From NCBI GenBank assembly GCA_043803105.1, contig JAZDKJ010000006.1, forward strand, positions 320,001-384,000: 64,000 nt of DNA. The letters run 5' to 3'. The DNA comes from Candidatus Woesearchaeota archaeon (lineage in GTDB: Archaea; Nanobdellota; Nanobdellia; Woesearchaeales; JAZDKJ01). Under the pieces are notes generated by a model. The model saw nothing but the letters and a program-made list of their open reading frames with translations, ran no database searches and was not told the DNA's origin. Position 1 is the stretch's first letter. Every line of letters begins with the position of its first letter. Below, in pieces: positions 1-11,456 of the stretch. Position numbers and translations under genes: made by a program.

Positions 1-470
1 AGTGCTTCATTGAATTCAGATTCTGTCTCAATAAAGTGTTTAATCCTTGCCACCTTTGAACTGAAAGCGGGTGCGCCCAATCCTGCTACTAGCGTGCACA
101 TGAGAAAGGCGATGAACGGATCATCAGTAAGCTGCAGCATCAAGAATATTCCCCCAATCATGACTATGGTCAGGCCGAAAAGTATTGCTGTTATGCGGGT
201 CGCGCTTTGCGAATAATTGTCTGACCTGTGGGGCTTGATTCTGGAAAATATATCATAAGTGATCATGATTAGACCGAAGATTGCTACGCCAAGCACAAAG
301 GACTTTGGAAATGTTACTATCTTGTCAGGCAGGGGCAGCTTGCTGAGGATGACCCCTGTTGCAAGGAGCATTAGCTGCATCGGCATTTTCCATCTGTGGC
401 AGAAGAAAGAGACCACCAGCCCAACCACAAAAATGAATGTTATAGGGTACAATGCTTCTAGTTGGTACAT
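1..470 (-). CDS. Cation:proton antiporter (NhaP/CPA1-like), N-terminal part; runs off the window edge
   Basis: ATG at 470 with upstream GAGGT. Translates as MYQLEALYPITFIFVVGLVVSFFCHRWKMPMQLMLLATGVIL..., several hydrophobic helices, ending ...FIETESEFNEA, which resembles the CPA1 ES-x-x-ND motif. Not in the ORF track. Confidence 0.65.
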   Translation of the reverse strand, partial: MYQLEALYPITFIFVVGLVVSFFCHRWKMPMQLMLLATGVILSKLPLPDKIVTFPKSFVLGVAIFGLIMITYDIFSRIKPHRSDNYSQSATRITAILFGLTIVMIGGIFLMLQLTDDPFIAFLMCTLVAGLGAPAFSSKVARIKHFIETESEFNEA

Positions 471-3129: not shown

Positions 3130-3675
3130 CTATTTAATTGTTGCGTGTTTGAGAAGGTCTGCAAGCCTCCTGAACGCCATCATGCGTATGTGGGCCTTGT
3201 CTATTGGCTCGCCCTCCATCTCGCCGTAGGTTACATCAAAACCCTCTGGCTGGAATATTGGGTCCCATCCAAAGCCAGAACTGCCTCTTGGCTTGACTAT
3301 CCTGCCCTTTACTTTGTGGTCAAAGAAAATTATCTCATTGCCATCAAAGTATCCTAAGGATACGCAAGCCTCTGCCCTGTCATTCCCAAGCTTATCAGCT
3401 ATTTTGTACAGTCCATCGAGCCCTATTGTTTTGATGAACCACTTGATTAGAGGGCCCGGAAGCCCATTGAGGCATTGCAGTGAGAGCGAGGTGTCGTCAA
3501 CGACAAAACGTCCTTTGTGGTGTTTTCTTGCTTCTTCCAGCTTTGCCTTTATTATCTCATGCTGGTCAATATGTTGTATCTCTGGGAGGTCTATTTCCAT
3601 GAGCTCAAGTTCAGGTATTATTTTTTTTGCTTGTGCGAATTTTCCCCTGTTCTGCGTTATGAAATAGATTGTCAT
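3130..3675 (-). CDS. Ham1/RdgB non-canonical purine NTP pyrophosphatase
   Basis: FITQN.GK, VDDTSL...[19 protein letters not shown]. Confidence 0.93.
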
Positions 3676-5993
3676 CTTGCGAGCGCTTCTTTTATGATGT
3701 CATACACTTTGGGGTGAAGGTCAGTGTCAAGCAGTGTTGCGTGCAGCATCTCAAGCCCATTGCACGTTCCGTTGACTACAGAATTGTTTGCTCCTTTGAG
3801 CCTTGCGTTCTGCTCTAGCACTACACCGTCACCATTTCCCTGGGGCATCTTGCAACCTGTGCCTATTATGTTGAAAACGGGTATTGTAATTGGAGCTTGG
3901 TTGACTTTGTTTATGAACAGGCTGTCTGCGTTCATCTCCTCGCATTCTGTCTGCGCCCCGACTATTGGGCAATAATCTGCTATCTCTCCTTCTATTCCAA
4001 GGTTTGGGGTGGCTATCAACATAACCTTGTAGAGGCTGTCAGCACCAAAGACCTGCATGTATCTTCTTGTCACAAGGCCTCCCATGCTGTGGGCAATGAT
4101 TATGACCTTGTCCTTTCCTGTCATGGTTTTTGCCTGGTTCACTATCTCCCTTAGCCTTATTGCATAGCTGTCTATGCCTTGTGTCTTTGTCTGCACCACT
4201 ACAAATTTCTCTGGTCCAGAAAAGAGGTCAAAATAAAAGCTTGATTTAAGATTCAGCGGCACTCTGGTCTCTCCGAATACTCCTGGCTGCACATTGCTAT
4301 ATGTTGATATCGCCCCAGCATCCAAGTAACCATCTTGCTCGAGCCTCGCTTCTATCTTGTTGAACGCATCCAAACTGTATTCAAAAGAGGTTTGCCTGTT
4401 AAAGGCATGGCCGTGCACAAAGATTATCGGGTAGAGTGTTGGTTCATAAGTGCACTCTCCGGCTGTGCAGCATTCAGCACATTTGTTTGACACGCAACAT
4501 TTTGCTACCGGCTCTGTGAATTGTATGCTCACCTGTACATCAGATGCTGTTGGGATATCGACAGTTTCAAATTTATACACGCTGAGCTGTTTTAATGTAA
4601 TGTTTCTGGGACTGCATCTGCTAGGCAATATCCGTTGAAGGTCTTTTGTAAAGTTCTGCCCTAGGTTAGGCAATGAATTTAATTGTTGTATAATCAGGTC
4701 AGAATTAGGATGGGTCGAGGACAGGTTGTCCGTGTATTTTGCTATAACTGTTTGCATAGAAAGGTTAGTTGAATTTTCGCTGGAAATATGCGCCAGTTGT
4801 TCTGTCAAATTTTCTAAATCATTGCATGCATTGCTCAATCTGAACTCGGTTTGCCTTGCCCTTTCGATAATGCTTGGGTAGCCATTGCAACTCAGGTTTG
4901 CCATGCAGAGCGCTGTTCTTATGACATCAGCCCTTACCTCGATATTAAGTGTCTGGTCCCTCAGCATTTCATTGATGATTAAGCTTGTTGTATTCACTTT
5001 CTTTAGCAAGCCGAGCACCGCTTTCTCTTTTTGCTCCATTGTGTTTCGCTGGTTGAATTTAAACGCTGCAAAGTTAAAATCATCAATTTCTGAGTTTGCA
5101 TTCTGAATTGGCAGCGGATTGTCCTGCAATAATACAATAATCTCATGCAGGATTTGTCCTGTTGCGTTGAGCTCGATCGCAGCTGTGTTGTAACGTTTCA
5201 CTAAATCAGACAGGCTTTTGTTGAAAATCTGTGTTTCTTGTTGCGATTGTGCATATTCTAGTTCAAAGGCGGCGGTATCATTCTCAAGCCTTGTATAGTC
5301 TTGTTCCTCCCAATAGGCCTGAAGGTCTCTCAAATGAGCAGTTAACAGGCTTAGCTTTACAGTCAAGTTGGAGCCTGTCTTCTCTATGCTGATTAGTTGC
5401 AGATTCTGTCCGAGCGCACCACTCACCTCTTGGAGCGCTTGTTCTGTTCCGAGCATCTGCCCGAGCCCTGCTGATAATTCCTCGAGCCTTGCTTTCAATT
5501 CAGCTTTTTGCTGTTTCTCCTCATCTGATAGGTCATAGTTTAATGCAACCAACACAGTTCTCTCAGTTGGCATCTGCGAGGTATGGCATAAGAGTGATTG
5601 CGCACTGTGGCATTCTATGCTAAAGCTGTAGAGTTCCTGGCCAAAGCCAAATTTTTGGACCTGCAAAGAGTATGTCTTGCTGAATGATTTTCCTGTAGAG
5701 AGTGTGAAATTGCTTTGGTCAATAAGGCGTCCTGAGCTTATGTCCTTGAAGCTTGAATTGCACATCGCATTGCAGAACAGGTTTGTTTGCGTTGTTGCTT
5801 CAAAGGTTACTGTTGCTGACTGCTCTCTCACAAGGTTGAACACCTCATTGTCAGCACTCAATTTAAGAATTATGTCGTTGCCTAAAAGAAGGTTAATATA
5901 AAGTGCTATCTCTGTGCCAAAGACCACCAAAAGTGCGGCAGCAATTGCTATGATTGTGATATACAACCATCTTCTGCTCTTCTTTTTTTTCAT
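3672..5993 (-). CDS. Membrane-anchored coiled-coil protein with C-terminal alpha/beta-hydrolase (lipase/PGAP1-like) domain
   Basis: Start taken at [11 protein letters not shown] followed by a TM helix. PIIFVHG, AHSMGG nucleophile elbow, IATPNLG, GDGVV, C-terminal His. Confidence 0.8.
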
Positions 5994-6029
5994 TGTCCTT
6001 AAATAAATAAATCTTATATTTAAATGTAG

Positions 6030-6064
6030 CACACTCACTGGACAATTAGCCACAGCATATTTAA
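6030..6064 (+). promoter_or_regulatory. Promoter of the RadA-like gene (TGGACA box plus TATTTAA), homologous to the polB2 promoter
   Basis: 26/35 ungapped identity with 8825-8859; the TATA element ends 20 nt before ATG 6084. Confidence 0.7.
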
Positions 6065-6083: not shown

Positions 6084-6773
6084 ATGGTGGCACTTACTGG
6101 TATTAAAGGCGAGTATGCAAACACTGAGTTGCTCTTGTATGCTATAACCAATAAGCCGTCGCTTATCATTGACTGTGCTAACTGCGCAGATCCTCATAGC
6201 CTCTTCCCTTTTGTTTTTCCTGAGGATTTTGTTGATGTGCACGTAATAGAGATTGAGTTGCTCTACCTTTTGCGTGATGTGCTGAAAAGAACGGGGGCAT
6301 TGGCTGATGAGTTGAAGCTAAGATGCGTGGTCATCCCGACGTTTGATTATTTGTTTGCCTATGATGACAAGGAGGAGAACAATGAGATTTTTTCGCAGTG
6401 CTGGAAACTCATAAAGGATTTGTCGCTAGATCACAACGTTGTTGTCGCCATCCACAAGTCTCATGATGGTTTTGCAGCAGGCTATTGTGATAAAATTGTT
6501 GAGGGTGAATTTATGGGTCATACTGTGCGAAGCCAAAGGTGCAACCTTGATGTCCTGCTTGAGGAGCTTAATGCATATGGCAAGTCTTTGAATGCTAAGG
6601 ACAAGGAAATCTTTGAGAAGATGCTGAAGCTCCCTTACCTTCATGTGGGCAGCATCTCTTATGCAAACAGCTTCCATGCCTGGGCCTTTCTTCTTTTGTC
6701 TATAATGCTCGAGCAGGAAAAAAGGATTAAGGAATTGGAAGAAATGAAGGATTTTGCCAACGAGATTAGCTAA
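6084..6773 (+). CDS. Degenerate RadA/RecA-like domain fused to the PolB2-associated small helical protein (arCOG07300-like)
   Basis: N-terminal part has IIDCAN..DP and VVIPTFDYLF but no intact Walker A. From Met144 (ATG 6513, preceded by GAGGGTGA), MGHTVRSQR...ELNAYGKSL..KDKEIFEKML...LLSIMLEQ resembles the MGRTVPS-type protein encoded beside polB2. Confidence 0.7.
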   Translation: MVALTGIKGEYANTELLLYAITNKPSLIIDCANCADPHSLFPFVFPEDFVDVHVIEIELLYLLRDVLKRTGALADELKLRCVVIPTFDYLFAYDDKEENNEIFSQCWKLIKDLSLDHNVVVAIHKSHDGFAAGYCDKIVEGEFMGHTVRSQRCNLDVLLEELNAYGKSLNAKDKEIFEKMLKLPYLHVGSISYANSFHAWAFLLLSIMLEQEKRIKELEEMKDFANEIS

Positions 6774-7402: not shown

Positions 7403-7885
7403 TCAGAAACATGCACTGCATGGTTCTTGGTTTTTCCGACTTTCCACAGGTTTCTTCCTTTCCAAGAGACTGGGTAATTCTCTGATGTAATCCACCAAAT
7501 GTTGATACAGGTCTTTCTTCCTAGAAGGCTCTTTTTCTAACCATGACAAGAATTCCTCTGTCGTTATATCATCTATACTGCTCCTTGCTGGAAAAACATC
7601 ATCCGCTTTTCGGTCGATGAAAACTCTTTGAATACCTCCATTGTAAGCAACATAGAATTGATGACCTTGTAAGTCTGTTTCACTAATGGTCTCATACTTA
7701 TTTGTTAGGTTAGCGCTGGGAAGTCTATATGCCTTATTCACCAACAACACACCATCTAAAAGGGCAGCTATATCACAAGTGTAACGGTCTTGGAGTGGAC
7801 CAGTAGCTTGTGTTTTTGATTGAAATTCTTTTGGCATTTGAATCATAAAGTCCTTTGCATATTTAATTCTTTTGTGTTTTATCAT
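7403..7885 (-). CDS. Hypothetical protein
   Basis: 160-aa ORF overlapping the end of the GNAT gene; AT-richer than the flanks. Confidence 0.55.
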   Translation of the reverse strand: MIKHKRIKYAKDFMIQMPKEFQSKTQATGPLQDRYTCDIAALLDGVLLVNKAYRLPSANLTNKYETISETDLQGHQFYVAYNGGIQRVFIDRKADDVFPARSSIDDITTEEFLSWLEKEPSRKKDLYQHLVDYIRELPSLLERKKPVESRKNQEPCSACF

Positions 7886-8729
7886 AGTCCCTTCTTATCA
7901 AGTAAAAGATGGTAGGTTGTTCCGGATCTATTTTTGCTCCGCGGTCTAAATACATTGGCACAAGATTGCCTCTAGCTGCCCCCCTAATTTCTATTGCATG
8001 ATTTGCTAATGCGAGGCTATTCAATGCATTGTGCAATCTTACGGATATGCCTTTTCTCCTGCTTCTTTGGGATACGAGAACTTGGTGAGCATGAATGATT
8101 ATTTTATTGTTGTTTTCTTCGACAGCCGATAGTAATACCCCCTCTATATTGCCATCGTCATAAACAAGACAAGTGGAAGGTGACATGTTATATAACAATC
8201 TCACAGCCCTATGTCTTAAAGTATACTCTTCCAAAAAGAGTTTTTCAACAAGAGGCACATCTGAGTCATTCATCGCCCTTATGCTTTCGTCAATGATATA
8301 GTGACTATCTTTTGTGACAGGGATGTAAATAGGAACTAATGCGGCAGCAGTTCTGTTAATAGGGATTTCATTTTCTAGTTTATCAGTTAATGCACAAAAT
8401 CCATGGTTTTTGAATGTAGCATAGTCCCTTTCATTACATCGCAAAATTTGCGGCACTTCGAATATTTTATCTAATACAAGAATGTAATCTTCCAGTGTTA
8501 TAGCATCACCTTTAAGGCTGACAAGATCGCATTGATCAATCGTGAAATTAACATAAGGGTCCGCAGCTTTTTGCCTCCATATCTTGATAAATCCAATAGC
8601 AGATTTATCAGTCACAAGAATATACTTGTCGTAATAAGTAAACTCTTTTCTGACTTGTGACCCTGGATCAGGTCCCAATTTGTTGATTAAAGGTCCAATA
8701 TTTTCAACTGTTAAACATTCATAAAACAT
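7863..8729 (-). CDS. GNAT-family acetyltransferase (C-terminal GNAT domain)
   Basis: IRAMNDSD start of domain, VLVSQRSRRKGIS acetyl-CoA motif A, PMY..RG. Confidence 0.75.
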   Translation of the reverse strand: MFYECLTVENIGPLINKLGPDPGSQVRKEFTYYDKYILVTDKSAIGFIKIWRQKAADPYVNFTIDQCDLVSLKGDAITLEDYILVLDKIFEVPQILRCNERDYATFKNHGFCALTDKLENEIPINRTAAALVPIYIPVTKDSHYIIDESIRAMNDSDVPLVEKLFLEEYTLRHRAVRLLYNMSPSTCLVYDDGNIEGVLLSAVEENNNKIIIHAHQVLVSQRSRRKGISVRLHNALNSLALANHAIEIRGAARGNLVPMYLDRGAKIDPEQPTIFYLIRRDYDKTQKN

Positions 8730-8824
8730 CAGTGCATTGCGTTCAGCGTGCTTAAAATGTCTTGTTTAAGAACAACCGAAAATTTTCCGAAATGTACAAA
8801 GGATTTTCAATTTTGTGCGCAAAA

Positions 8825-8859
8825 CACCCTCATTGGACATCCTGTCAAAGCCTATTTAA
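8825..8859 (+). promoter_or_regulatory. polB2 promoter with imperfect palindrome TGGACA-N3-TGTCAA upstream of TATTTAA
   Basis: Homologous to 6030-6064; GTG start 24 nt downstream. Confidence 0.7.
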
Positions 8860-8882
8860 GTCAGAAAAAAGATTCTCAACCT

Positions 8883-11456
8883 GTGAAAGCATGGCTCATG
8901 GATTCTTACAGGAGCAGGAACTCTATAGTGCTTTGGATAAAGACTCCTGACTCTGACATAAGGCTTGTGAGGCGCTTCAACACATTTATCTACGTTGATG
9001 TGCGAGCAGAGCCTTTTTTAAAAAAGCAGGGCCTTGTCTACTTTAGGCTGCAGAAGCAGACCTATCTTAGGAAGTGGAAGACTGTCCTTGCTGTGCTTGT
9101 GCCAAATCTTTCTGATTTTGAGAGGTTTGTCTCCTGGATTGAAAAAAGCACTAACTACACAGTCCCCATGTATAATGCTGATATTGTTCCTGAGCAGATG
9201 TTTTTTTACGAGCATAGGCTTGTCCCATGCAGTGCTGTCGAGATTGAGAACAACGTGATTATGAAAATGCCCGATGATGTCTCGATTCCTTTAAAGACCA
9301 TGGAGGTCAAGATTTGCACTAAAAATGCAAGGGACAATACTGTAAAGGTTGATTCTATTACTCTTGCTAACAAGCGTTTTGAAGGTGATGAATCATCTAT
9401 ATTAAAGTCATTTGTTGATGAATTTGTTGCTTTCGACCCTGATGTAATCGTGATTGAGCACGCATTCTCGCTTTTGCCTTATCTTGATTACAGGCTAAGG
9501 ATGAATGGATTGCATTGCCCTTTCCATCGCTGGGACGAATTGCCTATAAGGTACAGAGGCGGAAAGTCTTATTACACTTATGGCAGTGTGCGCTACCAGG
9601 ATTTTGCTATCCGCCTTCACGGCCGTTTTCTTGTTGATTCTTCTACAATGATAGGCGCAACCTGCGAGATTGATGCTATAATCGAGCTTTGCCATCTCTC
9701 TCACACAAGGTTTCAGGAGCTTGCCTCAAGAAGTTTTGGTGCAGTCTTTCAGTCTTCCCTTGTTAGGGAGATGGTTAACCATGGCTTTCTTGTCCCTTTC
9801 AAGGAGAAGCCTGTTGACAAGCCTATAAGTCTTTTCGAGCTGATGAAGTCTGACCAGGCTGCTCACAGGATTGACCCTAAGCCAGGCTTTCACACTGATG
9901 TTGCAGAGATTGATTTCTGTTCCATGTTCCCCTGGATCATCTACAACCATAACATCAGCGCTGACACAATACTTTCTGACAATGGTCCTTTCGAGCATGT
10001 TCCAGGCATTCCTGTAAGGATTTCCCTTAGCCATAAGGGCCTTGTCCCTATAGCAATAAAGCCAATACTTGATAGGCGCATGGAATACAAGAAAAACCCT
10101 ACTGCTGTGAACAAGGCCAGGGCAGTTGGCCTAAAATGGGTTCTTGTTACAAGCTATGGCTATCTCCGCTTCAGGGAGTTTAAGCTTGGCATTGCAAGGT
10201 CTCACATGGCTGTATGTGCTTATGCTAGGGAGATTCTTCTTTCTGCCATGCGACTTGCAGAGGAGAAGGGCTTTGAGGTGGTTCACGGCATTGTTGACTC
10301 GCTCTACATCAAGAAAAAAGGTATTGCAGAACAGGAAGTCAGGGACTTTTGCAGGGAGCTTGAGATGATGACAGGAATCCCTGTGGGCCTTGAAGGAATT
10401 TTCAAGTGGATTGTTTTTCTTCCAAGCGTTGTTGACAAGGACAGGCCTTTGCCTACCTGCTATTATGGGGTTTTTCATAATGGCGACATAAAGGCCAGGG
10501 GCATAGAAATCAGGAAAAGAAGCTCGCCTAATATTGTGAAGTATTTCCAGAAAAAGGCTCTTGAAGAATTGAGCAGCTGCTCCACAGAAGAAGAGATTGT
10601 GCAAAAGGCTCCAAAGCTTTGTTCTCTCCTGAAAAGGACTATCGGCAGGCTTGCAAGCCTTGATGCTAATGCCCTGTCCTGCTGTCTTCGGCTTGCCAAG
10701 CCTGATTACAAGTTTGATATTCCACAGAAGAAAGTTATGAGGCTTTTGGCTAAAAAAGGCATTTCTGTTTTTCCTGGCCAGACTGTGAGCTTTGTTTTCC
10801 AGCAGAACAGGTTGGTCTTACCAGAGGATTATAATGGCAAGCCAGACATCGCGTTTTACAGGAAGCTTTTGTTAAGGGCTCTTTTTGTCGTATTGCAGCC
10901 TTTTGGCTTCACCAAGGAAATGCTTGAGGAGTTGCTTAAATCCCAGACAAAGCTCCTTGACTTTGACACTGTTAGGCATGTTTTTGTCCCGATGCAAAAA
11001 CAATATTCTGAGCGGCAAGGTTTATCAGAGCGCATCCTTGCGAGGCGTTTGATAAAACAAGGCTGGTCTGTATGGAGGGGTGGCTTGATTAATATAGTGA
11101 ACAAGGACGACCTTTATCCCAATGTGAGAAAAAGATATGAGAAGCTTAACTCCCTTCTTTTCAAGCACCGCCCTGACCTCTTAGACTATCTGCATTATCT
11201 GTGTGATGTCCATCATGGCATGCCTGATTTCATATGCTTCAGGAACGGTGTTTTCAAGTTTGTGGAATGCAAGCTCGGCCATGAGCAATTAAGCGTTAGG
11301 CAGAAGAAATGCATTGCAAAGCTCCAGGAGATTGGATTTGTTGTTGAGGTTCACAAGCTTGTTGAGAGCTGCACAAAGGCAAGGATTGCACAGGTTAATC
11401 TTGCTGAGGGCACTAAGGTTGTGTTTGAAAGGCAGGCTAGACTTGTTTTATACTAG
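8883..11456 (+). CDS. polB2: Family B DNA polymerase, PolB2 group, fused to a C-terminal VRR-NUC-like PD-(D/E)xK nuclease
   Basis: Motif A IDFCSMFPWII, motif B LKWVLVTSYGY, motif C HGIVDS (PolB2-type variants); degenerate exonuclease domain; PIP-like QTKLLDF; then SE...GMPDF...FVECK....LS..Q. Start placed at GTG (VKAWLMD) from promoter spacing; the ORF is open from 8748. Confidence 0.88.
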   Translation: MKAWLMDSYRSRNSIVLWIKTPDSDIRLVRRFNTFIYVDVRAEPFLKKQGLVYFRLQKQTYLRKWKTVLAVLVPNLSDFERFVSWIEKSTNYTVPMYNADIVPEQMFFYEHRLVPCSAVEIENNVIMKMPDDVSIPLKTMEVKICTKNARDNTVKVDSITLANKRFEGDESSILKSFVDEFVAFDPDVIVIEHAFSLLPYLDYRLRMNGLHCPFHRWDELPIRYRGGKSYYTYGSVRYQDFAIRLHGRFLVDSSTMIGATCEIDAIIELCHLSHTRFQELASRSFGAVFQSSLVREMVNHGFLVPFKEKPVDKPISLFELMKSDQAAHRIDPKPGFHTDVAEIDFCSMFPWIIYNHNISADTILSDNGPFEHVPGIPVRISLSHKGLVPIAIKPILDRRMEYKKNPTAVNKARAVGLKWVLVTSYGYLRFREFKLGIARSHMAVCAYAREILLSAMRLAEEKGFEVVHGIVDSLYIKKKGIAEQEVRDFCRELEMMTGIPVGLEGIFKWIVFLPSVVDKDRPLPTCYYGVFHNGDIKARGIEIRKRSSPNIVKYFQKKALEELSSCSTEEEIVQKAPKLCSLLKRTIGRLASLDANALSCCLRLAKPDYKFDIPQKKVMRLLAKKGISVFPGQTVSFVFQQNRLVLPEDYNGKPDIAFYRKLLLRALFVVLQPFGFTKEMLEELLKSQTKLLDFDTVRHVFVPMQKQYSERQGLSERILARRLIKQGWSVWRGGLINIVNKDDLYPNVRKRYEKLNSLLFKHRPDLLDYLHYLCDVHHGMPDFICFRNGVFKFVECKLGHEQLSVRQKKCIAKLQEIGFVVEVHKLVESCTKARIAQVNLAEGTKVVFERQARLVLY

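What the first reader, a model, noticed from the sequence alone, without database searches (positions are those of the whole stretch)
8883..11456. PolB2 polymerase fused to an intact VRR-NUC (FAN1-like) nuclease
Seen: PolB2-type motifs (DFCSMFP, KWVLVTSYGY, HGIVDS) and a proofreading domain without recognisable Exo I/II acidic motifs. A PIP-like box QTKLLDF (about 10944-10964) sits where such polymerases usually end. About 160 extra residues follow, with SE...GMPDF...FVECK...LS..Q, a complete PD-(D/E)xK signature of VRR-NUC type. Known: VRR-NUC domains act on flaps or junctions (FAN1, stand-alone resolvases), and PolB2 is linked to damage tolerance. Inference: a PCNA-tethered cut-and-fill repair or mutagenesis enzyme working with the RadA-like fusion at 6084-6773. 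I do not know of a described PolB2-VRR-NUC fusion. This is the strongest candidate for an undescribed system in the window.
Basis: partly seen in the sequence, partly recalled or inferred. Interest (0 to 1): 0.88.

Follow-up and report, generated by a model that had tools for sequence, protein, structure and literature searches.

The report
PolB2 repair polymerase fused to nuclease
A small symbiotic-type archaeon carries a known damage-tolerance DNA polymerase (PolB2) joined end-to-end to an intact FAN1-like DNA-cutting domain, a recurrent natural fusion that I could not find described in print and that hints at coupled cutting and copying of damaged DNA.

Summary
Window 8883-11456 (+) is one 857-aa gene. 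It consists of a PolB2-type family-B polymerase (PolC motif HGIVD, Exo motifs lost), a PIP-like box QTKLLDF at 10944-10964, and a 163-aa VRR-NUC domain with invariant E, PD, ExK and Q.

The fusion is not an artefact. 64 of 120 database homologues and at least 19 of 401 genomes of the same order carry it. In a sister PolB2 branch the nuclease is a separate gene just downstream. Elsewhere it stands alone.

An AlphaFold model of the domain (pLDDT 91) shows a two-helix insert between strands 1 and 2. That topology is reported for FAN1's monomeric flap nuclease.

The "RadA-like fusion" at 6084-6773 is an iRadA-PPB2 fusion, so the locus is the published PolB2 "mutasome". What is new is the nuclease.

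A promoter motif, CACTGGACA about 50 nt before the start codon, precedes both window genes, PolB2 operons of relatives, and unlinked stand-alone nuclease genes. This points to one regulon.

Literature searches found no description of the fusion.

Verdict: a new variant of a known system. The mechanism (PCNA-tethered incision plus lesion extension) is inferred.

The parts
8883..11456 (+). PolB2-VRR-NUC fusion gene (857 aa, GTG start, stop included)
   Evidence: a single open frame, and the gene call P0002 is identical to it. Pfam finds DNA_pol_B plus VRR_NUC.
8883..9911 (+). N-terminal and degenerate 3'-5' exonuclease region of PolB2 (aa 1-343), including the D-(K/R)-type loop motif (here DQ, nt 9852-9857)
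   Evidence: Exo I D/E aligned to K/C, Exo II Asp absent, Exo III in a gap. D324 is invariant and R325 is kept in at least 90% of 74 sequences.
9912..9932 (+). Polymerase motif A, DFCSMFP (catalytic Asp344)
   Evidence: D344 is invariant in 74 of 74 sequences.
10134..10163 (+). Polymerase motif B, KWVLVTSYGY
   Evidence: K418, G426 and Y427 are invariant.
10284..10301 (+). Polymerase motif C, HGIVDS (the PolB2-type HxxxD)
   Evidence: H468 and D472 are invariant. HxxxD is described as the PolB2 form of YxDTD in PMC8764526.
10944..10964 (+). Internal PIP-like box QTKLLDF at the polymerase/nuclease junction
   Evidence: Qxx[LIVM]xx[FYW] at this column in 102 of 114 homologues; hhalign places it on QQNLKGFF, the C-terminal PIP box of the genome's own PolB.
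10965..11453 (+). VRR-NUC nuclease domain (aa 695-857). Catalytic E716 (11028-11030), PD781-782 (11223-11228), ExK795-797 (11265-11273), Q807 (11301-11303)
   Evidence: The AlphaFold model has pLDDT 91.4 and pTM 0.86.
11118..11210 (+). Two-helix insert between strand 1 and the PD strand (aa 746-776), the FAN1-type feature
   Evidence: DSSP string shows H52-68 and H70-82 of the domain model. Compared with the description of FAN1 in PMC4103454.
11433..11453 (+). C-terminal tail QARLVLY, a second PIP-like motif at the very end
   Evidence: Q851 is invariant in 64 of 64 long forms. Qxx[LIVM]xx[FYW] in the last 16 aa in 21 of 64. Model confidence is lower here.
8831..8859 (+). Promoter of the fusion gene: CATTGGACA (8831-8839), 13 nt, then TATTTAA (8853-8859); the GTG start lies 52 nt after the motif start
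6084..6773 (+). iRadA-PPB2 fusion gene (229 aa). The iRadA part is 6084-6512. The PPB2 part starts at the internal ATG 6513 (MGHTV), which is preceded by GAGGGTGA
   Evidence: the two halves are separate adjacent genes just upstream of PolB2 in relatives; tblastn of the two halves; the MG[RH]TV N-terminus is conserved; the internal ATG and the Shine-Dalgarno-like word.
6036..6064 (+). Promoter of iRadA-PPB2: CACTGGACA (6036-6044), 13 nt, then TATTTAA (6058-6064); the ATG lies 48 nt after the motif start

Best explanation
The gene encodes the catalytic subunit of a PolB2 'mutasome', the damage-tolerance polymerase complex PolB2 + inactivated RadA + PPB2 trimer. In this lineage of Woesearchaeota-like DPANN archaea the subunit has picked up a catalytically intact VRR-NUC endonuclease of the FAN1 (monomeric, flap-cutting) type at its C-terminus.

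Proposed working, all of it inferred:
1. The complex is loaded at a damaged primer-template, probably on PCNA. Loading would use the junction motif QTKLLDF, the terminal QARLVLY, or both.
2. The exonuclease-dead polymerase extends past lesions or mismatches, as Sulfolobus Dpo2 does.
3. The tethered nuclease cuts a branched intermediate on the same DNA. Candidates are a 5' flap raised by displacement synthesis, a stalled-fork arm, or the strand beside a crosslink.

Incision and synthesis would then be done by one polypeptide.

The two transcription units of the window (iRadA-PPB2 and PolB2-VRR-NUC) are co-regulated through a shared upstream element, CACTGGACA. The same element drives the stand-alone form of the nuclease in relatives and about a dozen other genes of this genome, several of them nuclease-family genes. 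A DNA-damage or DNA-transaction regulon is therefore likely.

Shown: domain identities, conservation of all catalytic residues, recurrence of fusion and adjacency, the partners, and the shared promoter motif. Inferred: enzymatic activities, substrate, PCNA binding, and the inducing signal.
For: PolB2 identity.
- The HxxxD PolC motif, with motif A and B residues invariant, and lost Exo motifs. These match the description of PolB2 in PMC8764526.
- iRadA and PPB2 homologues lie directly upstream of PolB2 in relatives, in the order iRadA-PPB2-PolB2.
- The PPB2 N-terminus MG[RH]TV matches the 'MGRT' arm of PMC11791011.

Nuclease.
- Pfam VRR_NUC is above its cut-off.
- The profile of 29 domains hits 11 FAN1 chain sequences at E 1e-6 to 2.5e-5, with PD, ExK and Q aligned.
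- E, PD, ExK and Q are invariant in 64 of 64 long forms and in 29 of 29 fused, adjacent or stand-alone domains.
- The model is confident, with topology helix-strand-helix-helix-strand-strand-helix-strand. PMC4103454 reports this topology for FAN1 and says it blocks dimerisation.

Linkage.
- At least 19 of 401 genomes of the order carry the fusion: 17 intact frames plus G001 and G217, which are cut by contig ends.
- In 6 genomes of a sister PolB2 branch the nuclease is a separate gene downstream of PolB2 (gaps of 32-195 nt in five, 1.25 kb in one).
- Co-occurrence: 35 of 49 PolB2 genomes have the nuclease, against 22 of 352 without PolB2 (related genomes are not independent).
- All 28 longer proteins that hold this domain are PolB2 fusions or fragments of them.

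Regulon.
- CACTGGACA occurs 20 times in the genome, 11 of them in promoter-like configuration. Among 300 letter-shuffled 9-mers the mean is 0.23 and the maximum 3.
- The motif (at most 1 mismatch) lies upstream of 15 of 16 PolB2 loci of relatives.
- It lies at -51 to -54 of 12 of 15 truly stand-alone nuclease genes, and in a 13th at a position that fits a shorter ORF.

PIP.
- The junction motif aligns with the canonical PIP box of the genome's own PolB.
- Some stand-alone nucleases begin with it, for example MRQTTLLEF.
- A PCNA gene is present.
Against: - No activity, binding or full-length structure was tested.
- The coupling is facultative. 14 of 49 PolB2 genomes had no nuclease match. 22 of 57 nuclease genomes had no PolB2 at E<=1e-40, among them genomes listed as 100% complete.
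- On the PolB2 tree, fused and short forms are interspersed. At least 23 changes are needed, and 9 are forced by well-supported branches (FastTree). The fusion is therefore often lost or split. Some 'short' database proteins may merely be cut by contig ends.
- The FAN1-type reading rests on the secondary-structure string of one predicted model. The sequence match to FAN1 covers only the PD-to-strand-4 half. Homology of the helical insert itself is not shown.
- The terminal motif has its aromatic residue in only 21 of 64 long forms.
- The regulon's signal is unknown. Its members also include a transposase and two LAGLIDADG genes, which could point to mobile-element control rather than repair.
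Confidence: 0.55

Rival explanations
1. Co-expression only. The nuclease is an independent repair or recombination nuclease of the same regulon. Its fusion to PolB2 is a neutral by-product of operon adjacency (loss of a stop codon). The two activities do not act on the same DNA molecule in a coupled way.
For: - The nuclease stands alone in many genomes. 22 genomes show no PolB2 match, and there are no conserved neighbours.
- Fused and short PolB2 forms are interspersed on the tree, and the nuclease tree does not separate fused from stand-alone forms.
- Stand-alone genes carry their own copy of the promoter motif, so co-regulation works without fusion.
Against: - The fusion is kept with all catalytic residues in 64 of 64 long forms, at 45-66% identity.
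- Adjacency holds in a distant PolB2 branch.
- PolB2 is the only fusion partner found (28 of 28).
- The junction is a conserved linear motif rather than a random linker.
Confidence: 0.25
2. The C-terminal domain is a dimeric Holliday-junction resolvase, like bacterial and phage stand-alone VRR-NUC proteins. It dimerises PolB2 or resolves recombination intermediates made with the RadA-like partner.
For: - Stand-alone prokaryotic VRR-NUC proteins are dimeric junction-resolving enzymes (PMC4103454).
- A weak Hjc Pfam hit (E 0.05, 14 bits, below cut-off).
- A weak hit to the 92-aa nuclease chain 4qbo (E 0.053).
- A RadA-derived partner is part of the complex.
Against: - The model has the two-helix insert at the place where FAN1's insert is reported to cover the dimer interface.
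- The significant PDB hits are FAN1 only (11 of the 13 sequences listed).
- The genome has its own Hjc at 111 bits.
- iRadA is described as an inactivated ATPase (PMC4104785).
Confidence: 0.1
3. The nuclease replaces the lost proofreading function. It removes mismatched or damaged 3' ends, or short 3' flaps, for an exonuclease-dead polymerase.
For: - The Exo motifs are lost.
- Sulfolobus Dpo2 has no 3'-5' exonuclease activity (PMC8764526).
- A nuclease sits in the same polypeptide.
Against: - The VRR-NUC enzymes characterised in the papers read here cut 5' flaps or junctions, not 3' ends (PMC4103454).
- Many PolB2 enzymes, including 14 of 49 genomes here, do without the nuclease.
- PolB2's reported role as a mismatch extender would be undone by proofreading (PMC8764526).
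Confidence: 0.05

Closest known systems
PolB2 (Dpo2) mutasome: PolB2 + iRadA + PPB2 trimer (Makarova et al. 2014, PMC4104785; Timinskas et al. 2025, PMC11791011; Sulfolobus Dpo2 biochemistry, PMC8764526)
   Same: - The HxxxD PolC motif and the lost Exo motifs.
- The D-(K/R)-type loop.
- The iRadA and PPB2 partners, including the published iRadA-PPB2 fusion variant with a Shine-Dalgarno-like word before the PPB2 part.
- A clamp-binding-type motif at the end of the polymerase.
   Different: - A 163-aa VRR-NUC nuclease follows the polymerase.
- In the main text of PMC11791011 the words 'nuclease', 'VRR' and 'DPANN' occur 0 times. Its supplementary tables could not be opened.
- In the window the partner gene is separated from PolB2 by two opposite-strand genes and has its own copy of the promoter.
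FAN1 (Fanconi-associated nuclease 1) VRR-NUC domain
   Same: - PD, ExK and Q motifs align.
- A two-helix insert lies between strand 1 and the PD strand in the model, as described for FAN1.
- Both are linked to PCNA-type motifs. A PCNA-activated FAN1 is the subject of PMC12078661, of which I saw only the listing and the start of the abstract.
   Different: - No FAN1 N-terminal domains are present; the partner domain is a polymerase instead.
- The sequence match covers only about 57 residues.
- Extra strands lie at both ends of the domain (E2-9, E139-156).
- It is archaeal.
Stand-alone bacterial and phage VRR-NUC proteins (stNUC, saNUC, psNUC; PMC4103454)
   Same: The same Pfam family and catalytic motif. 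The domain also exists as a stand-alone gene of about 160-230 aa in relatives.
   Different: Those proteins have about 90-120 residues, are dimeric and resolve junctions. This one has the helical insert and N- and C-terminal extensions. No relatives were found in viral contigs.
Eukaryotic Pol zeta working after nucleolytic unhooking in crosslink repair (analogy only; the pathway is recalled, not read here)
   Same: A B-family, exonuclease-dead extender polymerase (the PolB2/Pol zeta parallel is drawn in PMC11791011) combined with a FAN1-type nuclease.
   Different: In eukaryotes these are separate proteins recruited by ubiquitin signals. Here they form one polypeptide. No evidence on crosslinks was obtained.

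Membership tests
PolB2 group of archaeal family-B polymerases | PolC motif YxDTD changed to HxxxD, with the second Asp kept | tested here: met
   HGIVD at aa 468-472. H468 and D472 are invariant in 74 of 74 sequences. The criterion comes from PMC8764526.
PolB2 group of archaeal family-B polymerases | Exo I/II/III acidic residues deleted or replaced | tested here: met
   hhalign against the genome's canonical PolB: Exo I D/E aligned to K/C, Exo II Asp absent, Exo III in a gap. No Pfam DNA_pol_B_exo1 hit.
PolB2 group of archaeal family-B polymerases | Encoded with iRadA and PPB2 (arCOG07300) | tested here: met
   - Window 6084-6773 is an iRadA-PPB2 fusion.
- In relatives the two halves are adjacent genes directly upstream of PolB2.
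- 40 of 49 PolB2 genomes also match this protein.
PolB2 group of archaeal family-B polymerases | Placement inside the PolB2 clade of a family-B tree with named PolB1/PolB2/PolB3 references | not tested
   - No named reference sequences were available to me.
- NCBIfam NF004416 scores 330 bits, below its cut-off of 516.
- Its control genomes did not tell which group it stands for.
VRR_NUC (Pfam PF08774), PD-(D/E)xK superfamily | Score above the Pfam gathering threshold | tested here: met
   25.9 bits for the whole protein and 29.0 bits for the domain alone, against a cut-off of 23.8.
VRR_NUC (Pfam PF08774), PD-(D/E)xK superfamily | Catalytic E (helix 1), PD, ExK and the conserved Q | tested here: met
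   E716, P781-D782, E795-K797 and Q807 are invariant in 64 of 64 long forms and in 29 of 29 domains. They align with FAN1 chains.
VRR_NUC (Pfam PF08774), PD-(D/E)xK superfamily | PD-(D/E)xK core fold (helix, three strands, helix, strand) | tested here: inconclusive
   The order of secondary-structure elements in a confident model fits.
FAN1-type (monomeric) VRR-NUC | Two-helix insertion between strand 1 and strand 2 that covers the dimer interface | tested here: inconclusive
   Helices 52-68 and 70-82 lie at that place in the model (criterion from PMC4103454). Packing on the sheet, the monomeric state and homology of the insert were not tested.
FAN1-type (monomeric) VRR-NUC | 5' flap endonuclease / 5'-3' exonuclease activity, with no junction resolution | not testable with these tools
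   Needs biochemistry.
PIP-box (PCNA-interacting peptide) | Qxx[LIM]xx[FY][FY] in a flexible terminal or linker region | tested here: inconclusive
   - QTKLLDF lacks the second aromatic residue. It aligns with the canonical QQNLKGFF of the genome's own PolB and is kept in 102 of 114 homologues.
- The terminal QARLVLY form is kept in 21 of 64 long forms.
PIP-box (PCNA-interacting peptide) | Binding to the organism's PCNA | not tested
   Complex prediction with the genome's PCNA (L052:1444-2199) was asked for five times and never ran.

The most novel reading that the evidence does not exclude
An archaeal FAN1-type nuclease is physically welded to a Pol-zeta-like extender polymerase and its RadA-derived partner. 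Together they form a one-complex 'unhook/incise and bypass' machine on PCNA. It is driven by a previously unrecognised DNA-damage regulon of DPANN archaea, marked by CACTGGACA upstream of the TATA box.

That would be a minimal prokaryotic counterpart of the nuclease-plus-translesion-polymerase step of eukaryotic crosslink repair, and a possible relative of the FAN1 nuclease module.
Probability: 0.15. Interest if true: 0.85.

Novelty: new variant of a known kind. Interest (0 to 1): 0.62.

Why it matters
PolB2 was long thought to be a dead polymerase. It is now known as the enzyme needed for damage-induced mutagenesis in Sulfolobus, but how its complex gains access to lesions and hands over is open.

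A natural fusion names a candidate fourth component of the mutasome: a structure-specific nuclease. The same link appears as gene adjacency in a sister branch and as a shared promoter element when the genes are unlinked.

The fusion also gives a compact protein in which incision and lesion extension can be studied together.

The FAN1-type helical insert in an archaeal VRR-NUC bears on where the monomeric, flap-cutting form of this nuclease arose.

The promoter motif offers a first handle on a repair-type regulon in uncultivated DPANN archaea.

Tried and rejected
- Assembly or gene-calling artefact. Rejected: the same architecture is present in 64 of 120 database homologues from many sources and in 17 intact frames among 401 genomes.
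- Sole Holliday-junction resolvase of a reduced genome. Rejected: the genome has an Hjc at 111 bits.
- Viral or mobile origin of the nuclease. No relative was found in viral contigs: 53 pattern matches, none confirmed. No conserved neighbours appear around the 16 stand-alone loci beyond within-genus synteny.
- Other fusion partners. None: 28 of 28 longer proteins are PolB2 fusions or fragments.
- NCBIfam NF004416 as a PolB2 label. Not decisive: no control genome scores over the cut-off.
- Tree of the nuclease domain. Unresolved: 3 of 26 inner branches are well supported. One row labelled 'alone' (L014) later proved to be a fused gene cut by a contig end.
- Post-hoc pattern TTTAA-N2-6-AAAAAA-N1-3-ATTCT. 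It is found only at the two window promoters in the genome, but I designed it from those two sites, so it is weak evidence.
- Text search for CACTGGACA. It returned only unrelated primer-type hits.
- Sequencing runs. No RNA holder was listed. One DNA run held a 0.06 share of the words, and I did not lay it.
- The phylum-level sample added one more fused genome (G418). All 37 matches were labelled 'same order'. The output does not say how many of the 401 genomes belong to other orders, so I make no claim of restriction to the order.
- Supplementary files of PMC11791011 and PMC4104785 could not be opened. They may list these Woesearchaeal proteins.
- Complex prediction gave no result at all.
This call adds it and changes nothing else.


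Full report
WHAT IS THERE

The ORF list shows one open frame 8748-11456 on the + strand. The gene call held in the protein collection is 857 aa and corresponds to 8883-11456 with a GTG start (P0002; translation). Homologue N-termini (consensus MxxWLxDAYR) fit that start. A TATTTAA word lies 24-30 nt upstream.

Pfam finds DNA_pol_B (E 5.8e-12). It also finds VRR_NUC at 25.9 bits against a gathering score of 23.8. The last 163 residues alone score 29.0 bits.

The PIP-like box QTKLLDF is at 10944-10964.

THE ORGANISM AND ITS OTHER POLYMERASE

The window is C6:320001-384000 of a 1.56-Mb, 13-contig genome with 96.5% completeness. Source names of the closest homologues are Woesearchaeota, Nanoarchaeota or Nanoarchaeia.

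The genome holds a second, canonical family-B polymerase of 823 aa. It has FDIET, GFD, YxxxD, DxxSLYPS, KxxxNSxYG and YSDTDS motifs and a textbook C-terminal PIP box, QQNLKGFF. The window's protein is therefore an additional, divergent PolB. It carries the only VRR_NUC match in the genome.

THE POLYMERASE HALF IS PolB2

- Against solved archaeal PolBs, motif A (DFCSMFP), motif B (KWVLVTSYGY) and motif C align. Motif C reads HGIVDS where the solved enzymes have YGDTDS.
- PMC8764526 (passages read) states that PolB2 enzymes carry HxxxD in place of YxDTD and lack Exo motifs. It reports that Sulfolobus Dpo2 is nevertheless a robust, exonuclease-free polymerase that extends mismatched and lesion-opposed termini.
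- In an alignment of 74 homologues, D344, K418, G426, Y427, H468 and D472 are invariant.
- A profile alignment with the genome's canonical PolB puts K and C at the Exo I Asp and Glu. It shows no Asp at Exo II and places Exo III in a gap.
- The D-(K/R) loop motif of PolB2 described in PMC11791011 is represented by invariant D324 and by R325 in at least 90% of sequences. The window protein itself has DQ.

THE PARTNERS

PMC4104785 (passages) and PMC11791011 (abstract, sections 3.1 and 3.3) describe a PolB2 operon. It includes an inactivated RadA (iRadA) and a small helical protein (arCOG07300 / PPB2). PPB2 is modelled as a trimer whose conserved N-terminal 'MGRT' arm reaches the active site. iRadA-PPB2 fusions are described, preceded by Shine-Dalgarno-like words before the PPB2 part.

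The window ORF 6084-6773 has no Pfam hit. Its two halves, however, match two adjacent genes that lie directly upstream of PolB2 in relatives. In G008, for example, they occupy C2:127641-128072 and 128032-128283, and PolB2 starts at 128282. In several relatives they match one fused gene instead.

The PPB2 halves begin MGHTV or MGRTV in all 15 relatives printed (M read from ATG, TTG or ATT/GTG contexts) and in the window. The window's internal ATG at 6513 is preceded by GAGGGTGA.

Two opposite-strand genes (7403-8729) split it into two transcription units.

THE NUCLEASE HALF

Conservation. In 64 of 120 homologues the polymerase is followed by a C-terminal domain of 156-187 residues. In those 64, the residues E716, G779, P781, D782, F793, E795, K797, E801, Q807 and Q851 are invariant.

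Sequence relatives. A profile of 29 such domains (fused, adjacent and stand-alone; alignment A1) finds 11 FAN1 chain sequences at E 1e-6 to 2.5e-5. The motif G(M/L)PD...FK(F/L)VE(C/V)K...LS..Q aligns. It also finds one 92-aa 'Nuclease' chain (4qbo) at E 0.053.

Model. AlphaFold2 on A1 gives a confident model with pLDDT 91.4 and pTM 0.86. The order of elements is:
- strand 2-9
- helix 20-31, which carries the conserved Glu
- strand 35-38
- helices 52-68 and 70-82
- strand 89-93, preceded by the PD dipeptide
- strand 96-104, carrying ExK
- helix 111-122, carrying Gln
- strand 126-133
- two further strands

Comparison with FAN1. PMC4103454 (passages) reports that FAN1's VRR-NUC differs from the dimeric, junction-resolving bacterial and phage proteins. 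FAN1 has a two-helix insertion between strand 1 and strand 2, just before the PD dipeptide. This gives a helix-strand-helix-helix-strand-strand-helix-strand topology that blocks dimerisation and biases the enzyme towards 5' flaps. The model has that order of elements.

This is a likeness of topology read from one predicted model. The structural search that would test it was switched off, and the sequence match to FAN1 does not cover the insert.

IS THE FUSION REAL AND RECURRENT?

Counts in 401 genomes of the same order:
- the nuclease domain matches in 57
- the polymerase core (E<=1e-40) matches in 49
- the iRadA-PPB2 protein matches in 42

Arrangements of polymerase and nuclease:
- Seventeen genomes have both in one open frame of more than 800 aa. 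One of them, G292, has a TAG inside the nuclease match.
- G001 (same genus) and G217 are fused but cut by contig ends.
- In six genomes PolB2 is only 32-33% identical to the window's, and they form the sister clade on the tree. There the nuclease homologue (29-38% identical) is a separate gene downstream of PolB2. The gaps are about 32-195 nt in five genomes and 1.25 kb in G096.
- In ten genomes the two genes lie on different contigs.
- In 22 genomes the nuclease is present without a PolB2 match.
- In 14 genomes PolB2 is present without the nuclease.

The cross-table (35 / 14 / 22 / 330) is strongly skewed, but related genomes are not independent.

Wider searches:
- All 28 proteins longer than 287 aa that contain the domain are PolB2 fusions or fragments of them.
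- Among 1.84 billion representatives, 573 match the profile at E<=1e-3 and 44 at E<=1e-30. Most of the latter are proteins of 160-230 aa.
- A FastTree of 122 polymerase cores needs at least 23 changes between fused and short states, 9 of them forced by well-supported branches. The fusion has therefore been lost or split many times. The direction cannot be read from these counts, and some short database entries may be truncated.

THE TWO Q-MOTIFS

The junction motif Qxx[LIVM]xx[FYW] is present at the same alignment column in 58 of 61 fused and 44 of 53 short forms. Short forms end a median of 18 residues after it. hhalign places it on the canonical PIP box of the genome's own PolB.

Some stand-alone nucleases begin with it, for example MRQTTLLEF or MRQTSLPEF. 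Others begin just after it. So fission has occurred on either side of the motif.

A second motif closes the protein, QARLVLY. Its Gln is invariant. The full Qxx[LIVM]xx[FYW] form is present in 21 of 64 long forms, and the model is less confident there.

The genome has a PCNA gene. A complex prediction was requested five times and never ran. Binding remains untested.

A SHARED PROMOTER ELEMENT

I found this while checking starts. Upstream of iRadA-PPB2 lies CACTGGACA (6036-6044), then 13 nt, then TATTTAA, with the ATG 48 nt after the motif start. Upstream of PolB2-VRR-NUC lies CATTGGACA (8831-8839), then 13 nt, then TATTTAA, with the GTG 52 nt after the motif start.

In the whole genome, exact CACTGGACA occurs 20 times. 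Eleven occurrences are in promoter-like configuration, meaning a TATA-like word 8-18 nt downstream and an ORF of at least 50 aa starting 40-100 nt downstream. For 300 letter-shuffled 9-mers the mean is 0.23 and the maximum 3.

The looser pattern gives 16 sites, against 2 for the reversed control. ORFs were found behind 12 of the 16 sites. Two are the window genes. The Pfam results for the other ten are:
- a PD-(D/E)XK nuclease (PDDEXK_1, E 4e-35)
- an RNase_H_2-superfamily protein (E 2e-32)
- a DUF1016 N-terminal domain protein
- two LAGLIDADG proteins
- a DDE transposase
- DUF4186
- a GMT-wHTH protein
- a weak DUF4258 match
- one protein with no Pfam hit

In relatives, the motif (at most 1 mismatch, same strand) lies upstream of the first detected mutasome gene in 15 of 16 loci. 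It sits 48-60 nt before that gene in nine loci (L037, L041-L047, L049). In four distant-branch loci it sits about 450-480 nt before PPB2, which would fit an undetected iRadA gene in between. It sits at -113 in L038 and at -55 in L048.

Most tellingly, CA[CG]TGG[AC]CA lies at -51 to -54 of the start codon of 12 of the 15 truly stand-alone nuclease genes. In a 13th (L030) it lies at +66 of an over-long ORF. These 13 sites are 13 of only 14 matches in 106 kb of searched sequence, both strands counted.

The unlinked nuclease genes therefore carry the same promoter element as the PolB2 operons. This is independent evidence for a functional link. The signal that controls it is unknown.

MOST LIKELY MECHANISM

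Inferred: a PolB2 mutasome whose catalytic subunit carries a FAN1-type, probably monomeric, structure-specific nuclease. The complex is tethered at or near PCNA, so that a branched or damaged intermediate is incised and the primer is extended by one complex. I put this at 0.55.

Rivals:
- mere co-expression of an independent nuclease (0.25)
- a dimeric junction resolvase (0.10)
- a stand-in for proofreading (0.05)

Main weaknesses of the preferred reading:
- The coupling is facultative.
- The fusion has been lost or split repeatedly.
- There is no test of activity, docking or PCNA binding.
- The FAN1 likeness has a thin basis.

COMPARISON WITH WHAT IS KNOWN, AND NOVELTY

Both domain families and the PolB2-iRadA-PPB2 system are published. 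The fusion is visible in automatic annotations: 49 of 120 listed homologues carry precomputed PF08774 plus PF00136, and one is named 'VRR-NUC domain-containing protein'.

I found no description of it in print:
- 'VRR-NUC' with 'PolB2' gave 0 papers.
- 'VRR-NUC' with 'PolB' and 'fusion' gave 1 paper. It concerns a helicase-pPolB fusion and a separate BRO-N-VRR-NUC gene in a dinoflagellate virus-like element.
- In the search of 'VRR-NUC' with DPANN, Woesearchaeota or Nanoarchaeota, none of the 20 listed papers contains the word VRR-NUC.
- The search of 'PolB2', 'nuclease domain' and 'DPANN' gave nothing relevant among the 15 papers listed.
- The word VRR is absent from the main texts of PMC11791011 and PMC7544198.

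I rate it a new variant of a known kind: real, recurrent, with a testable mechanistic suggestion and a bonus regulon motif.

TOOLS THAT WERE CLOSED OR UNAVAILABLE

- Fold search
- a second structure prediction
- Complex prediction
- The search of earlier findings
- The protein-atlas search for these sequences

Noticed in passing
window 6036-6044 and 8831-8839; genome sites listed; relatives L004-L050: A promoter element CACTGGACA lies about 13 nt upstream of the TATA-like box and about 50 nt before the start codon. It marks about a dozen genes of this genome, among them several nuclease-family genes. It also marks PolB2 operons and unlinked stand-alone VRR-NUC genes across the order. This looks like an undescribed regulon of these DPANN archaea.
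   Followed up: partly
window 6084-6773 (internal ATG at 6513): iRadA and PPB2 are fused into one 229-aa ORF. An internal ATG opens the PPB2 part (MGHTV) and is preceded by GAGGGTGA. This fits the published idea that free PPB2 is also made from such fusions. The Walker-A region reads GIKGEYANTE, with no GKT/S.
   Followed up: partly
window 7403-7885 (-) and 7863-8729 (-): Two overlapping opposite-strand genes are inserted between iRadA-PPB2 and PolB2, where relatives have a tight operon. One has only weak GNAT acetyltransferase matches below the Pfam cut-offs. The other has no family.
   Followed up: no
stand-alone nuclease proteins P0125, P0133, P0139, P0142: Some stand-alone nucleases start with the PIP-like motif (for example MRQTTLLEF) that sits at the polymerase/nuclease junction in fused forms. 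Others start just after it. The split point therefore varies around this motif.
   Followed up: partly
G000:C2:108293-110764 (L009:1432-3903, minus strand): The genome's canonical 823-aa family-B polymerase has all Exo and Pol motifs and a textbook C-terminal PIP box, QQNLKGFF.
   Followed up: partly
G292:C4:8539-9024 (L012): A closely related fused gene (63% identical in the nuclease part) has one TAG inside the nuclease match. This could be a sequencing error, a recent break or a recoding event.
   Followed up: no
window 3672-6053 (-): A 793-aa protein with an N-terminal membrane or signal-like segment, a Cys-rich stretch and a C-terminal alpha/beta-hydrolase (lipase-like) domain with modest Pfam scores. 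Its start faces the iRadA-PPB2 promoter.
   Followed up: no
G000:C6:307397-308194 and G000:C2:51824-52999: Two further genes behind CACTGGACA promoters encode an RNase_H_2-superfamily protein (E 2e-32) and a PDDEXK_1 nuclease (E 4e-35). They are candidates for further members of the same DNA-processing regulon.
   Followed up: no
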